Source: a virus
Taxonomy: Duplodnaviria; Caudoviricetes
DNA length: 64,000 bases
Virus record (IMG/VR): IMGVR_UViG_3300011806_000001
Span: 21,152 to 85,151 of that record
Direction: 5' to 3' (one strand)
Shown: one piece after another, positions 12,326 through 53,206 of the stretch
How the letters are laid out: each line of letters opens with the position of its first letter
Numbering within the stretch: the first letter of the stretch is position 1
The notes under the pieces: generated by a model
What the model was told of the DNA's origin: nothing
Database searches by the model: none
Seen by the model: only the letters and a program-made list of their open reading frames with translations
Position numbers and translations under genes: made by a program

Positions 12326-12373
12326 CCGTACCCCGTCGCGCCACCTGAGACGCCGGGGAGGCATAGTGTGGGC

Positions 12374-12562
12374 ATGGACGCCCCAGACACCCCCGAACCC
12401 GAAGACCGCCCGGACCCCACCAAGCTGGCGCCGGGCTATGCCCACCTGCTGCTTCACGACACCCGCACGCCCGAGGAAAAGCTGGCCGCCTCGTTGAAGG
12501 AGTCGGCCAGGCGCAAGGGCAGGGGAAGGGCGAAGTGGTGGGAGAAGGGCGCTCCGCAATGA
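12374..12562 (+). CDS. Conserved 62-aa hypothetical protein next to attR (homolog of 51629-51814)
   Basis: Near-identical protein at the equivalent position in P2; ATG 6 nt after a -10-like CATAGT. Confidence 0.75.
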   Translation: MDAPDTPEPEDRPDPTKLAPGYAHLLLHDTRTPEEKLAASLKESARRKGRGRAKWWEKGAPQ

Positions 12563-12578
12563 ATTTTCGCCTCAGTCC

Positions 12579-12591
12579 AATCAATGACTTA
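12579..12591 (+). promoter_or_regulatory. IHF-binding site in the P1 right att arm
   Basis: AATCAATGACTTA matches WATCAANNNNTTR; similar copies at 12717-12729 and 51991-52003. Confidence 0.6.
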
Positions 12592-12663
12592 CCCGGCGAT
12601 GTGCGGTGCGTGACGCGGAGCGGATTTTAGGGCTAAAGCCTTGTGAGAGTAGGGGTCTTCCAG

Positions 12664-12721
12664 AGACTTTTAATCTTTTGGTCGATGGTTCGAATCCATC
12701 ACGGCCCACCAATTGCATCAA
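12664..12721 (+). repeat. att core, copy 1: 3' 48 nt of tRNA-Lys(UUU) plus 10 nt; P1/P2 junction
   Basis: AGACTTTTAATC...GGTTCGAATCC...CACCA (anticodon loop, T-arm, CCA) with no 5' half; identical to 51939-51996. Confidence 0.95.
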
Positions 12722-12727
12722 TGACTT

Positions 12728-12752
12728 AAGGCGCCCTATGGGCGCCTTTTTC
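12728..12752 (+). terminator. Intrinsic terminator after the tRNA fragment
   Basis: AAGGCGCCC-TAT-GGGCGCCTT followed by a T run. Confidence 0.75.
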
Positions 12753-12757
12753 ATCTG

Positions 12758-12779
12758 CTCCGTAAATCACTCCGTAATT
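12758..12779. promoter_or_regulatory. Integrase arm-type sites, P2 left arm
   Basis: Tandem CTCCGTAAAT / CTCCGTAATT; the same motif recurs at 51837-51846 and 51889-51898. Confidence 0.65.
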
Positions 12780-12805
12780 GCTTAGGCGGATGCCTTTGGT
12801 AATAT
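12778..12805 (+). promoter_or_regulatory. Putative sigma70 promoter of the cargo pair
   Basis: TTGCTT-16 nt-TAATAT, about 40 nt upstream of 12845. Confidence 0.5.
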
Positions 12806-12844
12806 GCCCCTTGGAGGCCTCAGGACGAGGCTCAGGGGAAGCAA

Positions 12845-13819
12845 ATGCGATTGCGCGAGAAGCGGGTACTTCGGTTCTTAGAGCTGAAGCTGGACCACGG
12901 TATGGGTGCTCTGAACAAGCAACCGTGGGACCTTAAGATGATCCTTGAGACGGTCATCGGAAACGACTTTTACAACAGGGCCCCTCGCGAGGGCGCCAAC
13001 TCGATCGTCAGAATCAAGCATGGCAAGGTCTTCACCCACGCTGGTGAAGAGTTCATTGGCTTGCTGCTGATCCATGCGGATTCGCGGTCGATCGAGGCGA
13101 GCTACGCTGATCTGCAAACGGGAAGCGCGCGGGCGTTGCCAATGCAGGACGGTGAGGGCGTTCGAACTGAAGCTCACGTTGTCATCCGGCTGAGCCATGA
13201 AACTCTGGGGACTACGCAGTCGTATCCCGTGGTCTTGGAAGAGTCGCCCGGGCTTTCACCTTCCGTCTTGCTGTCTAGGTTACAAAGGCCTGTGCACAAG
13301 GCGGGCGAGCGTTCACAGAAGAACTCAGCTGGTGAGATGAAGACGTGGTATCCAGTAATGACGCTGGACGGCCTCTTCTCTAAATCGCTTCTAGACGAGA
13401 TAGAAAATGGCAACCTAAATTCGTTCGATCTCGTCAGGCAAAGTATCAAATCGGGGGGTATGGACGAACCAGGTGAACTTGTGCTTCAGCATCAAGTGCT
13501 TCACGTGGGTTTGCGTCCAGGCCCTGAGGAAGGGTTCGTCAAACGTTCTCTCGCGGCGGTGCGTAAGCTTGCGTTTGAGCAGGAGTACGAACAGATCCGG
13601 ATTCATTACAAAGAGTCTGGCAGCCCAAAAACCAAGACGGCAGTTGTCGATGTGGATGCCGATGCAGCAGATCCTGCAGAAGCACTTGATCAACTGGTAT
13701 CGCGTTCGAAATTGGTCTCGTTGATTACCCCAATGAACTGGGATCACGAGGAGGTCGTTGATGACTTCTTGCAGCTGATGGCCGAACGTCTACTGAGCGA
13801 AATAGAAGAGGATCAATGA
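12845..13819 (+). CDS. Uncharacterised soluble cargo protein (324 aa), candidate defence component
   Basis: Long ORF, visibly lower GC than phage core genes, coupled to the next gene by ATGA. Confidence 0.8.
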   Translation: MRLREKRVLRFLELKLDHGMGALNKQPWDLKMILETVIGNDFYNRAPREGANSIVRIKHGKVFTHAGEEFIGLLLIHADSRSIEASYADLQTGSARALPMQDGEGVRTEAHVVIRLSHETLGTTQSYPVVLEESPGLSPSVLLSRLQRPVHKAGERSQKNSAGEMKTWYPVMTLDGLFSKSLLDEIENGNLNSFDLVRQSIKSGGMDEPGELVLQHQVLHVGLRPGPEEGFVKRSLAAVRKLAFEQEYEQIRIHYKESGSPKTKTAVVDVDADAADPAEALDQLVSRSKLVSLITPMNWDHEEVVDDFLQLMAERLLSEIEEDQ

Positions 13820-14367
13820 ACGTTATCTTCCAGCTTTTGACTCCGGCTCGCTACTTGCGGATCAAGTCTGAATCTCATGAAAAGCTGGTTATCGATTACG
13901 TCCTGCCGGCCGTTTTGGCGCTCGCCACCACGGCCGCTTGGGGATGGAGGCCGGACTTGCTCTCAATGGGCGGCCCGTCGGGTGTCGTCACTGGGGTGTC
14001 CAGCCTCATCCAAGTTTTGGTTGGCTTTTACGTCGCCACCCTTGCAGCGGTTGCAACCTTTCCAACTTCGTCGTTGGATGAGGACACAAATCGGATCACT
14101 TTTGAAGGAAAGTCTCTGAAGCGGCGACGATTCTTGGCCTACCTGTTCGGGTATCTGGCGCTTCTCAGTCTCTTGCTGTTCATCGCGCTTTTGTTTCGCC
14201 CAATGATTCATGGGCTGCTAAATCAGATCGATTTCACCGGAGTCCAGCGCTGGCTGAGGCTCTTCTTCGTTTTCGTCTATCAGTTCGTCTTCTGGCAGAT
14301 GGTCTTTATTACGATGCTGGGCCTTTACTACCTGACGGATCGCATTCACCGCTCAAATGCTGAGTAG
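13816..14367 (+). CDS. Uncharacterised multi-pass membrane protein (183 aa, about 4 TM), candidate defence effector
   Basis: Four hydrophobic stretches; GFYVATLAAVATF and RRRFLAYLFGYL segments. Confidence 0.8.
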   Translation: MNVIFQLLTPARYLRIKSESHEKLVIDYVLPAVLALATTAAWGWRPDLLSMGGPSGVVTGVSSLIQVLVGFYVATLAAVATFPTSSLDEDTNRITFEGKSLKRRRFLAYLFGYLALLSLLLFIALLFRPMIHGLLNQIDFTGVQRWLRLFFVFVYQFVFWQMVFITMLGLYYLTDRIHRSNAE

Positions 14368-15507
14368 CTATGGCTCGGATCGTGACGGTTTAACCCGAGG
14401 TACGCTCTTGTCGTATACCTTCATCATGGCGTCGCTCACGCCCAAGGCATCCTGACGCTCTGCGCGATTTCCGATAGTGTCTGTGCCACCCTTTCGCTTC
14501 AGATCGTGAATGCCAAAGCGCTGGTCTTCCCGAATGACGCCCTCACGAAGCGCCATCTGAATGAAGCGCTGCCACGCGCTATCTAGGCTGGACTTTTGGA
14601 TTGGCTCGCCATGTTGCGCAAGGATCAAGGAGCGGTGCTCTGCTCGAAGCTGCACAGGCAGCGCGTGGCGATCGATAACCGATTGGCGCAGCGCTATCGC
14701 CGCCTCCCAAGCCGCCTTAAGGCGCGGCGACCATTCGACCAGGCTGTCACGACTACGCTTCCGTCGGTTGGTATGCAGGCCTTCATCATGCGCGTGTGCA
14801 TCGGTCAGAGTGATGGTTTCGACGCCGCGCAGCCTGCACAGGTAGCCGATCTCCATCACGATCCAGAGATAGGGTGGGACAGAGCCCTCGGTGTGCGAGC
14901 CGCGTGTTCCTCGATCGCGAGCAAAGGCCAAGAGTGCGTCATAAGCGGCATCCGTCGGTAGCCGCTGCCGCTTGCGCTCCTGTGCAGATTCAAGGCCTTG
15001 TGCTGGGTTGTGGGGAACTAGCCCCCTGTTGAGCGCCCAGCGGAAGACCAAGCGCGCGTAACGCAGCACTTTGTTCGCTTTCGTTGGCGTGCCGTCAGCC
15101 TCGATGCGATCAACAAGGCGCTGAAAGTTCGAGTTGCGGAGTCGCGCAACCTGCAGCTGCCCGAACTTAACACCCAGGGAGGTCGGAAAGCTGAGCATTA
15201 CATCGCGAGCTTGGCTGTAGTCGTCGCGCGTTCCTTTGGCGAGCTTCTTGAACTTGGGGCTGTCGTGGTACTGGTCGCAGACCCATTGGACTGTTCCCGA
15301 CTCGGTGTTTTCCTCGGTGATGGCGAACAGATCGGAGAGCTTTGCGCTGGGCCCGGCGACTGTCCGTCGCTTTTTCCTGCCACCCTCAACATCAAACACG
15401 AACCACCTACCGCGGCCACTGGGGTCCCAGTACACGCCTTTCGGAATCTTCGCCTGGTCGATGTGATCAGGAATATTTGGTTGATGCTTTCGAGCGCGTG
15501 GGGTCAT
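14368..15507 (-). CDS. int: Tyrosine integrase of P2
   Basis: LCRLRGVE, HDLKRKG and C-terminal VYD motifs; adjacent to att; homologous to 52013-53206. Confidence 0.95.
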   Translation of the reverse strand: MTPRARKHQPNIPDHIDQAKIPKGVYWDPSGRGRWFVFDVEGGRKKRRTVAGPSAKLSDLFAITEENTESGTVQWVCDQYHDSPKFKKLAKGTRDDYSQARDVMLSFPTSLGVKFGQLQVARLRNSNFQRLVDRIEADGTPTKANKVLRYARLVFRWALNRGLVPHNPAQGLESAQERKRQRLPTDAAYDALLAFARDRGTRGSHTEGSVPPYLWIVMEIGYLCRLRGVETITLTDAHAHDEGLHTNRRKRSRDSLVEWSPRLKAAWEAAIALRQSVIDRHALPVQLRAEHRSLILAQHGEPIQKSSLDSAWQRFIQMALREGVIREDQRFGIHDLKRKGGTDTIGNRAERQDALGVSDAMMKVYDKSVPRVKPSRSEP

Positions 15508-51383: not shown

Positions 51384-51628
51384 GACCGAACCATACCCCC
51401 TGCCAGCGGCCGGGACCTTCGCGCGGTGTGCACTCCGACGGCGGGAGGCGGCCGATCCCCACACGCGGGCGGGAACTCGACCTGTATCGCCGCGGGGTGT
51501 GCGCGGGCAATCTGTATTCGCTGGATCCGGGAGCCGCAGGCAGCTCAGCCCGGGTGATGGAGCGGCCTGAGCAGCCGCCCCGCCGGCACCGTCGCAACCC
51601 CTGAGACGCCCGGGCGTATCCTGCGGGC

Positions 51629-51814
51629 ATGGACACCCCTGACAAGCACGATCCGCCCGACCGCCCGGACCCTACGAAGCTGGCGCCGGGCTATTCCCAC
51701 CTGCTGATGCGCGACACCCGCACCCCTGAGGAACGGCTGGCCGCCTCGTTGAAGGAGTCGGCCAGGCGCAAGGGGAGGGGGCGGTCGAAGTGGTGGGAGA
51801 AGGTTGGCGACTGA
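51629..51814 (+). CDS. Conserved 61-aa hypothetical protein next to attR (homolog of 12374-12562)
   Basis: DRPDPTKLAPGY.HLL..DTRTPEE.LAASLKESARRKGRGR.KWWEK shared with the P1 copy. Confidence 0.75.
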   Translation: MDTPDKHDPPDRPDPTKLAPGYSHLLMRDTRTPEERLAASLKESARRKGRGRSKWWEKVGD

Positions 51815-51836
51815 TGCCTTCTCTCGGCCCCTGGGG

Positions 51837-51898
51837 CTCCGTAATTGAGCAAGGCCCACCACTGCGATGCAACGGTTTCGGGAGTGGCGTCCGTAATT
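51837..51898. promoter_or_regulatory. Integrase arm-type sites, P2 right arm
   Basis: CTCCGTAATT (51837) and GTCCGTAATT (51889) match the left-arm motif. Confidence 0.6.
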
Positions 51899-51938
51899 CA
51901 AAATCATACATGTGCTTGATTTGGCATGCCTTGGGCCT

Positions 51939-51996
51939 AGACTTTTAATCTTTTGGTCGATGGTTCGAATCCATCACGGCCCACCAATTGCATCAA
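51939..51996 (+). repeat. att core, copy 2: tRNA-Lys 3' fragment; P2/P3 junction
   Basis: Identical 58 nt to 12664-12721. Confidence 0.95.
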
Positions 51997-52002
51997 AGAC
52001 TT

Positions 52003-52028
52003 AAGGGGCGCTCTATGCGCCCTTTTTG
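52003..52028 (+). terminator. Terminator hairpin after the tRNA fragment, overlapping the int stop
   Basis: AAGGGGCGC-TCTAT-GCGCCCTT followed by a T run. Confidence 0.65.
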
Positions 52029-53206
52029 TTGCCTCCTGAAAACACTCCTGAAAACGATGGGAGTTTTGCAGGTTCCACGAGGGGCACTTCGTGGTCGTAT
52101 CGCTGCCGCATACGTTCGGATTTGTGGCCTCCGGACGCCTTGTCTTTGCTGTCGGTGATGCCGCGGTGCTTGATGCCATGGAGGGTGAAGTGCTCGCTCT
52201 CCTGCAGCAGGGAAACTCCGTCCTCATCTGGCTTCATCGCCAAGGCCATGAGCCGCTGCCAAGCTGTGTCGAGCGCCGACTTTGACAATGGCGTGCCACG
52301 CTGACTGACCACCAGGAAGCGCAGTTCCGGTCGAAGCTGCGCAGGCCTGTCATGCCGCTTCTCGGCCTCTTTCCGAAGTTTGACCAACGCGTCCCATGCG
52401 TCACGCAGCTCCGGTGTCCAGCGCGTCACGTTGTCCCGGCTTCCCTTCCGACGGTTACTCAGCACTCCGTCATCGGTTGCGTTGGCGTCGGTCAGGGTCA
52501 CAGCTTCAATGCCGCGCAGGCGGCATGCGTAGGCGATGATCATCAGGTGGCCCAGGTAGGGGGCGACACTCCCCTCGGTGTGCGCCTTGCGCTCACCCCG
52601 GGCGATAGCGAAGTGCGCCACCTTGCTGAATGTCTCGGGCGTAGGCATTTTGAACTGGCCGCGTTCCTTGACCTGCGCCGCCCCGCTGGCGGGGTTGTTC
52701 TGGCACGCCCCGTGCTGCACGCCCCAAGCGAACACACGGCTCAGGTATCGCAGGAGGTGGTTCGCCTTCGATGGCATGCCGCGTACTTCGCCCCGACCCT
52801 TGGCGATCACCTCAACAATCCGCTGAATCGCTGGCACCGACAGCCTCGAGACGGCCAGCTTGTCGAGGGTCAGGCCCAGGCCGGTCTTGTATGTTCGCAC
52901 TACCTGTCGCTGGTGCTCGTAGCCCTTTCTTGTGCCGGCAGACAGCTCAGCAAACTTGGTGCTCTCGTGAAACCGGTCCATTACGTAGCCCACGGTGCCG
53001 CGCGCGGCCGTGCCCGCGCGGGCTTCCATAATCGCGTGCAGGTCGGACAGGAGCGCCTTTGAACTGGCCACGGTCACAGCCTTGCGAGGAAACTCGAGCA
53101 CGTACCACCGTCCGTTGCCGGAGGAATCCCAGTAGACCCCTTTCGGAATCTTGGGTTGGTCGATGTGGGCAGGGATGGTGGGGTTGTGCTTGCGTGGCCG
53201 TGGCAT
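52013..53206 (-). CDS. int: Tyrosine integrase of P3
   Basis: CRLRGIE, HGIKHRG, GHKS...RYD; homolog of the P2 integrase. Confidence 0.95.
   Translation of the reverse strand: MPRPRKHNPTIPAHIDQPKIPKGVYWDSSGNGRWYVLEFPRKAVTVASSKALLSDLHAIMEARAGTAARGTVGYVMDRFHESTKFAELSAGTRKGYEHQRQVVRTYKTGLGLTLDKLAVSRLSVPAIQRIVEVIAKGRGEVRGMPSKANHLLRYLSRVFAWGVQHGACQNNPASGAAQVKERGQFKMPTPETFSKVAHFAIARGERKAHTEGSVAPYLGHLMIIAYACRLRGIEAVTLTDANATDDGVLSNRRKGSRDNVTRWTPELRDAWDALVKLRKEAEKRHDRPAQLRPELRFLVVSQRGTPLSKSALDTAWQRLMALAMKPDEDGVSLLQESEHFTLHGIKHRGITDSKDKASGGHKSERMRQRYDHEVPLVEPAKLPSFSGVFSGGNKKGA

What the first reader, a model, noticed from the sequence alone, without database searches (positions are those of the whole stretch)
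12778..14367. Uncharacterised two-gene cassette (soluble 324 aa + 4-TM 183 aa) between att and integrase: candidate anti-phage system
Seen: the pair has its own sigma70-like promoter, is translationally coupled (ATGA), has lower GC than the phage core and runs opposite to the early operon. It fills a slot that is empty in P3, where int abuts att. Known: att-int intervals of temperate phages are cargo hotspots for lysogen-expressed defence genes, and soluble-sensor plus membrane-effector pairs are a common defence architecture (e.g. Kiwa, though Kiwa has the TM gene first and I do not recognise KwaA/KwaB motifs here). I cannot assign either protein to a named family. Inference: a possibly undescribed two-component defence or superinfection-exclusion system.
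Basis: partly seen in the sequence, partly recalled or inferred. Interest (0 to 1): 0.8.

Follow-up and report, generated by a model that had tools for sequence, protein, structure and literature searches.

The report
Rex-like two-gene prophage defence cassette
The two genes are real and intact, but they are not an undescribed system: they belong to a widespread family (PADLOC candidate PDC-M53) whose relatives in Pseudomonas putida, and very probably Vibrio cholerae, have been shown to stop phage infection in the manner of phage lambda's RexA/RexB pair.

Summary
Gene A (12845-13819, 324 aa, soluble) overlaps gene B (13816-14367, 183 aa, four membrane helices) by ATGA. The pair is low in GC (53.5% against 63.7%), convergent with the integrase, and fills a slot that is empty in the next tandem prophage. 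The proposed promoter is weak.

The pair is not unassigned. It matches PADLOC's untested candidate PDC-M53 (A 1.4e-15, B 3.2e-36). In 72 of 73 genomic loci, an A homolog lies directly upstream of the B homolog.

The model of A (pLDDT 91) has lambda RexA as its best solved match by two methods, followed by Iml3, CENP-N and RdgC. No sequence or profile method links A or B to the lambda RexA/RexB families.

Two relatives have been tested by others. One Pseudomonas locus has gene ends that match those published for RexABpp (PP_5643/5644), and it is hit strongly by the family models. A Vibrio cholerae integron cassette in the same family is very probably Sucellos.

Best reading: a lysogen-expressed abortive-infection module in which A senses infection and triggers the membrane effector B. 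It is a new member of a known kind. Earlier follow-ups in this scan reached the same reading for other PDC-M53 copies.

The parts
12640..12711 (+). 3' part of a tRNA-Lys(UUU) gene, from the anticodon stem to CCA. It forms the left part of the att core (12664-12773), which is repeated at 51939-52048.
   Evidence: Sequence read. The exact 25-nt T-arm/acceptor repeat and the 110-nt repeat are, and the two copies are aligned. ARAGORN finds no whole tRNA.
12728..12748 (+). Terminator-like GC hairpin with a T run, just after the tRNA fragment. It is conserved in the second att copy.
12778..12805 (+). Possible weak promoter of the cassette: TTGCTT, 16 nt, TAATAT, with TGn before the -10 hexamer. This is inferred only.
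   Evidence: Read. The promoter scan did not report it. The V. cholerae relative Sucellos is reported to carry its own promoter.
12845..13819 (+). Gene A, 324 aa, soluble. It is a PDC-M53A / RexA-fold protein and the presumed sensor. Family-invariant residues are H111 and E132. R7, L74, E104 and D207 are nearly invariant.
13816..14367 (+). Gene B, 183 aa, PDC-M53B. It has four long membrane helices (22-44, 57-81, 103-126, 141-182), an N-terminal amphipathic segment and a short hairpin between helices 2 and 3. It is the presumed membrane effector.
14368..15507 (-). Tyrosine integrase of this prophage, convergent with the cassette. The stop codons abut.
51939..53206 (.). Comparison site: the second att copy, followed directly by the integrase (52013-53206, minus strand) of the next tandem prophage. 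No cassette is present.

Best explanation
The cassette is a Rex-type, two-component abortive-infection (phage-exclusion) module carried as cargo between attP and int of a temperate phage of a Stenotrophomonas/Xanthomonas-like host. Shown here: the two genes form a fixed, tightly coupled A-then-B unit that moves between unrelated genomic sites. A has the RexA/RdgC/Iml3 two-domain fold. B is a small four-helix inner-membrane protein. The pair is homologous to a close relative of P. putida RexABpp. Inferred from published work on relatives: in the lysogen, A (probably a DNA-binding dimer) is kept inactive. Infection by another phage produces a signal that A senses, either a phage protein or a replication/recombination DNA-protein intermediate. 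A then activates a multimer of B, which permeabilises or depolarises the inner membrane. Growth stops and the infecting phage cannot complete its cycle. The trigger, the phages excluded and the stoichiometry of B are unknown for this copy.
Confidence: 0.7

Rival explanations
1. Butters-type reversal of roles: the soluble A protein is the toxic effector, and the membrane protein B only sequesters it until infection releases it.
For: A Rex-like system with this logic has been described, mycobacteriophage Butters gp30/gp31, as summarised. A carries an invariant His/Glu pair (H111, E132) that could mark an activity of its own.
Against: In the closest validated relative, RexABpp, growth arrest on overexpression of A depends on B, and both genes are needed for defence. 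The same is reported for Sucellos. B is the better conserved partner, with 42% mean column identity against 25% for A. That pattern fits an effector paired with a diversifying sensor.
Confidence: 0.1
2. The pair mainly serves the prophage itself, for example by tuning the lysis-lysogeny switch as lambda RexA does, or by stabilising the prophage as an addiction module. Phage exclusion would then be at most a by-product.
For: Lambda RexA biases the CI-Cro switch independently of RexB. In L088 the pair lies directly after a CI-like S24-peptidase gene. In the window, transcription of the pair would run antisense into int.
Against: In the window the pair is not next to the immunity region. It lies at att-int, and the sister prophage lacks it, so it is dispensable. 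The family also occurs outside prophages: inside or beside restriction-modification systems and in a chromosomal integron. Those sites have no lysis-lysogeny switch to tune.
Confidence: 0.1
3. A is an RdgC-like DNA-binding or recombination-modulating protein with a membrane anchor partner. The function is not defensive.
Against: There is no Pfam RdgC hit for A or for any of 57 family members. The strict pairing with a four-helix membrane protein, the mobile-element and defence-island contexts, and the phage-defence phenotypes of relatives do not fit a housekeeping recombination role.
Confidence: 0.05
4. A Kiwa-like system, the comparison offered by the first reader.
For: Only the general plan of a membrane protein plus a soluble protein.
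Against: The gene order is opposite. Neither DUF4868 nor DUF4747 is hit in Pfam for A or for 57 relatives. PADLOC assigns PDC-M53 and not Kiwa. No KwaB structure appears among the listed fold matches.
Confidence: 0.02

Closest known systems
PADLOC phage defence candidate PDC-M53 (PDC-M53A + PDC-M53B; Payne et al., bioRxiv 10.1101/2024.01.29.577857, cassette CAS_00171)
   Same: Both proteins hit its HMMs, and they are adjacent on the same strand in the order A then B.
   Different: PDC-M53 is a catalogue entry predicted from embedding in BREX, DISARM or type I RM systems and was untested in that paper. This copy is prophage cargo at att-int.
RexABpp of Pseudomonas putida prophage P1 (PP_5643/PP_5644; Rosendahl et al., Sci Rep 2026, PMC12894663)
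   Same: Same family by HMM, through a locus whose gene ends match the published primers. Sizes are similar (330 and 188 aa in that locus). The genes are tightly coupled and prophage-borne, and the A protein has a RexA-like fold at a similar Z (8.8 reported, 8.6 here).
   Different: Only 26% (A) and 30% (B) identity. RexABpp lies downstream of the CI-like repressor, whereas this copy lies between att and int. The invariant arginine near the C terminus of B is a lysine in the Pseudomonas protein.
Sucellos (SclA/SclB) of the Vibrio cholerae superintegron (Darracq et al., bioRxiv 10.1101/2024.07.02.601686)
   Same: A two-gene V. cholerae cassette flanked by integron repeats hits PDC-M53A/B and is homologous to the window pair (A E 9e-10; B 37-39% identity). 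Sucellos is described as RexAB-like by structure but not matched by the Pfam Rex domains. Both genes are required, it acts by abortive infection, it has its own promoter, and it is often found in prophages.
   Different: The link between that cassette and Sucellos is inferred from the description. No Sucellos sequence or DefenseFinder model was at hand. The genetic context differs (integron cassette against prophage cargo).
Phage lambda RexA/RexB (Pfam PF15969/PF15968; RexA structure 8TWQ)
   Same: The plan is the same: a soluble protein of about 300 aa followed by a small four-helix inner-membrane protein, expressed from a prophage. RexA is the best solved fold match of A.
   Different: No detectable sequence or profile similarity. 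B is 183 aa against 144 aa and has an extra N-terminal segment. The pair is not adjacent to cI in the window. A has an invariant His/Glu pair that is not among the invariant residues of the RexA family.
Actinobacteriophage Rex-like pairs (Sbash gp30/gp31, CarolAnn gp44/gp43, Butters gp30/gp31)
   Same: Prophage-encoded pairs of a soluble and a membrane protein that exclude other phages. A Sbash protein of 165 aa appears among the weak, non-significant fold matches of B.
   Different: No sequence relation was tested or shown. In Butters the roles of the two proteins are reversed.

Membership tests
PADLOC PDC-M53 | Protein matching a PDC-M53A HMM | tested here: met
   PDLC04696 at 1.4e-15 (residues 68-314 of 324). 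Four further PDC-M53A models also hit.
PADLOC PDC-M53 | Protein matching the PDC-M53B HMM | tested here: met
   PDLC04699 at 3.2e-36, covering residues 3-179 of 183.
PADLOC PDC-M53 | The two genes adjacent on one strand, A before B | tested here: met
   4-nt ATGA overlap. The same arrangement is seen in 72 of 73 loci.
RexABpp-type system (P. putida PP_5643/5644) | Sequence homology of both proteins to RexApp and RexBpp | tested here: met
   Tested against L088, whose gene ends equal the primer-derived ends of PP_5643/5644. Pairwise E is 1.5e-5 (A) and 1.6e-11 (B). Family HMMs give 1.3e-42 and 1.2e-50.
RexABpp-type system (P. putida PP_5643/5644) | Both genes required for defence; A binds DNA; A overexpression gives B-dependent membrane damage | not testable with these tools
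   Reported for RexABpp. Bench work is needed for this copy.
Sucellos (SclA/SclB) | Homology to the two-gene V. cholerae superintegron cassette | tested here: met
   The L019 pair lies between two integron repeats. It hits PDC-M53A at 3.6e-19 and PDC-M53B at 9.9e-35. Window A against L019 A gives E 9e-10. Window B against L019 B gives E 1.5e-25.
Sucellos (SclA/SclB) | That cassette being the published Sucellos, or a match to the DefenseFinder Sucellos models | tested here: inconclusive
   The description fits, and Sucellos and PDC-M53 are both reported in nearly all isolates of one Salmonella set. No Sucellos sequence, gene number or model was at hand.
Lambda RexA/RexB | Match to Pfam RexA (PF15969) and RexB (PF15968), or to the PADLOC RexA/RexB models | tested here: not met
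   No hit at E up to 1. The same models score lambda's own proteins at 1e-97 to 9e-110 for RexA and 8.5e-92 and 8.6e-61 for RexB. None of 57 A relatives hits Pfam RexA.
Lambda RexA/RexB | Profile-profile similarity to the RexA and RexB families | tested here: not met
   hhalign of A2 against a 17-sequence RexA alignment gives 9.5% probability, over the C-terminal 82 columns only. The B family (181 sequences) against 65 RexB-family sequences gives 2.4%. No secondary-structure scoring or deep HHpred databases were available.
Lambda RexA/RexB | RexA fold: a split globular domain interrupted by a beta/alpha dimerisation domain, closed by a C-terminal helix | tested here: met
   Best solved match by two methods. 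The order of secondary-structure elements fits the published description. The overall rmsd is large, and the domains could not be superposed separately.
Lambda RexA/RexB | Partner is a small four-helix inner-membrane protein encoded directly downstream | tested here: met
Lambda RexA/RexB | Location beside the CI repressor and co-transcription with it | tested here: not met
   In the window the pair lies between att and int. In L088 it does follow a CI-like S24-peptidase gene.
Kiwa (KwaA/KwaB) | Membrane gene first, then a DUF4868 protein | tested here: not met
   The order is soluble then membrane. No DUF4868 hit. No PADLOC Kiwa hit.
RdgC | Match to the RdgC sequence family; a stand-alone gene | tested here: not met

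The most novel reading that the evidence does not exclude
The A proteins of this family carry an invariant His111/Glu132 pair and a GEGxxxSAH motif in the globular domain. Neither is among the conserved residues of the lambda RexA family. If this pair is a catalytic or ligand-binding site, the PDC-M53/RexABpp/Sucellos branch would sense or act by a different chemistry from lambda Rex, for example by processing a phage nucleic acid or binding a small molecule. It would not then simply clamp DNA and gate a channel.
Probability: 0.12. Interest if true: 0.55.

Novelty: new member of a known kind. Interest (0 to 1): 0.25.

Why it matters
The finding places a prophage of a Stenotrophomonas/Xanthomonas-like host in a family with experimentally validated members. 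That gives a testable prediction: its lysogens should abort infection by some other phages through membrane damage. More generally, it ties three names together (PADLOC PDC-M53, P. putida RexABpp and, very probably, Sucellos) as one widespread family. The family spans gamma-, alpha- and beta-proteobacteria and sulfate reducers, with single loci labelled Trueperaceae, Halomicronema and Candidatus Leptofilum. It has the RexA fold but no detectable sequence similarity to lambda Rex. This copy adds no new principle.

Tried and rejected
- Pfam, NCBIfam: no family for A or B, and no Pfam family for any of 57 A relatives. PHROGs gave only families of unknown function (phrog_16499, phrog_8257).
- The cassette region has no near-identical match in the phage collection.
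- A sequence profile of the A family against all solved structures gave no hit at E up to 10.
- hhalign to lambda RexA and RexB was not significant, whether against single sequences or family alignments.
- The fold search of B against predicted viral structures gave nothing significant, best E 0.38.
- The protein-atlas search returned only unnamed clusters. One neighbouring cluster has DUF4747 on 14% of its members, and Pfam scans did not confirm this.
- PP_5643/5644 DNA was sought with the published primer sequence. There was no match in the loci held, in viral contigs or in metagenome contigs. The link was made through the peptide ends instead.
- Pfam RexA is rare: 2 of 401 Enterobacterales genomes scored over its cut-off.
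- Sequencing runs: no RNA holder is listed, so expression could not be examined and no reads were laid.
- No Sucellos gene numbers or sequences were found in the text or the held supplement.
- A conserved third gene was considered and rejected. Neighbour clustering shows no recurrent family.

Full report
**Observation**

The window is bases 21152-85151 of an 85-kb viral record. They overlap by ATGA, and A is preceded by AGGGGA 5 nt before its ATG. A tyrosine integrase (14368-15507) lies on the other strand, and its stop codon abuts that of B.

To the left lies the 3' part of a tRNA-Lys(UUU) gene, followed by a GC hairpin. ARAGORN finds no whole tRNA. This 110-nt att core recurs 39.3 kb downstream, at 51939-52048. 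There the integrase of a related prophage follows it directly. The roughly 1.6-kb cassette is therefore an insertion relative to the sister element.

The cassette has 53.5% GC, against 63.7% for the rest of the prophage. Its third-position GC is also much lower. The proposed promoter matches only 7 of 12 consensus positions, though it has an extended -10, and the scan tool did not report it.

**Family**

Pfam and NCBIfam give nothing. PADLOC-DB assigns A to PDC-M53A (1.4e-15) and B to PDC-M53B (3.2e-36). PDC-M53 is one of 145 untested 'phage defence candidates'. They were derived from genes embedded in BREX, DISARM and type I restriction systems. It is cassette CAS_00171 in that paper's supplement.

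The closest homologs are in Stenotrophomonas and Xanthomonas. A scan of one genome per species with an alignment of B gave 80 loci. Most are from gamma-, alpha- and beta-proteobacteria and sulfate reducers, with single loci labelled Trueperaceae, Halomicronema and Candidatus Leptofilum.

- In 73 loci an upstream same-strand ORF could be read.
- In 72 of these it is an A homolog. A single-sequence search already finds 59 of them.
- In 65 it lies within 25 nt of B, and 12 loci have the same 4-nt overlap.
- No other gene family recurs beside the pair.

The immediate neighbours include type I and type ISP restriction enzymes, Mrr-like nucleases, helix-turn-helix and S24 repressors, integrases, resolvases, transposases and holins.

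In S. maltophilia the pair occupies the same slot beside int, together with other cargo. In X. phaseoli it lies between the terminase and portal genes, beside insertion sequences. This is the behaviour of a self-contained mobile module.

**Structure**

B is modelled (pLDDT 80) as four long helices, with basic residues at the N terminus, in the loop between helices 2 and 3, and at the C terminus. It has no significant structural match.

**Relation to lambda Rex**

Every sequence test failed.

- The Pfam and PADLOC Rex models score lambda's own proteins strongly but do not hit A or B.
- hhalign gives 9.5% probability for A against a RexA alignment, and 2.4% for the B family against 65 RexB-family sequences.
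- My family HMMs do not hit lambda RexA or RexB.

Membership in the lambda Rex sequence families is therefore not met. The resemblance lies in fold, partner type and gene order.

**Validated relatives**

I could not fetch those genes directly. The published primers give their ends: MHRTATFV... for PP_5643, and MLIGQLANP... and ...LYYLGYKLQE* for PP_5644. Locus L088 came from a search of 401 Pseudomonas genomes with the PDC-M53B model, which hit it at 3.4e-70. It encodes a 330-aa protein beginning MHRTATFV and a 188-aa protein ending LYYLGYKLQE.

My family HMMs, built without L088, hit its proteins at 1.3e-42 and 1.2e-50. Pairwise, the window proteins match them at E 1.5e-5 and 1.6e-11. RexABpp is therefore a PDC-M53 member, and the window pair is its distant homolog.

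The Sucellos paper describes a two-gene V. cholerae integron cassette that is RexAB-like by structure but not matched by Pfam. Both genes are required, it acts by abortive infection, it has its own promoter, and it is often found in prophages.

Locus L019 from V. cholerae holds an A-B pair between two integron repeats. It hits PDC-M53A/B and is homologous to the window pair. The identification with Sucellos is very probable but rests on the description.

**Mechanism and verdict**

Shown here:
- an obligate, tightly coupled A-B module;
- a RexA-like fold for A;
- a four-helix membrane partner;
- mobile-element and defence-island contexts;
- homology to a validated system.

Inferred: A senses an infecting phage and triggers B to damage the membrane, which aborts the infection. 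I put this at about 0.7. The rivals are a reversal of roles as in phage Butters (0.1), a role mainly in the prophage's own switch or stability (0.1), an RdgC-like non-defence role (0.05) and Kiwa (0.02).

Expression in the lysogen could not be examined, because no RNA data set was listed.

The cassette is a new member of a known kind. The invariant His111/Glu132 pair of A remains unexplained and is the one feature that might hide a mechanistic difference from lambda Rex.

Noticed in passing
window 12367-12773 and 51622-52048: Two related but distinct prophages (73-86% identity in the shared stretches) lie head to tail. An att core (tRNA-Lys 3' end) sits at each junction, 39.3 kb apart, with phage late genes on the left of both. 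The record therefore looks like a tandem polylysogen array at one tRNA-Lys site, or an assembly that joined such phages.
   Followed up: partly
window 14365-14370: The stop codon of B (TAG) and the stop codon of int (CTA on the plus strand) are adjacent, with no terminator between them. Transcription of the cassette would run antisense through int. Whether this affects integrase expression is unknown.
   Followed up: no
window 12845-12902: A public gene call for a 99%-identical protein starts at the second ATG (305 aa). The family alignment keeps a nearly invariant arginine at residue 7, which supports the longer 324-aa form starting at 12845.
   Followed up: partly
window 13150-13245 (A residues 103-133): The A family has an invariant His111 and Glu132 and a GEGxxxSAH motif. 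These are kept in the P. putida-like and V. cholerae relatives, but not among the invariant residues of the lambda RexA family. Their role is unknown.
   Followed up: partly
L088:81-2067: In this Pseudomonas genome the RexABpp-like pair directly follows the 3' part of a CI/LexA-like S24-peptidase gene. This is the same arrangement as cI-rexA-rexB in lambda.
   Followed up: no
L093:3696-7473: In a related S. maltophilia prophage, the slot between the host queC side and int holds the pair plus two further genes of unknown function (318 aa upstream on the other strand, 280 aa downstream). The slot is therefore a variable cargo site.
   Followed up: no
L096:2476-7775: In Xanthomonas phaseoli the pair lies between the terminase and the gpW/portal genes of a prophage, flanked by IS21-like and IS3-like transposase genes.
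   Followed up: no
fold searches of A and B: The best viral fold match of A (E 7.6e-11) and a weak, non-significant match of B come from the same uncultured virus (Siphoviridae sp. ctylc9). A 165-aa protein of mycobacteriophage Sbash, which has a known Rex-like pair, also appears among the weak matches of B.
   Followed up: no
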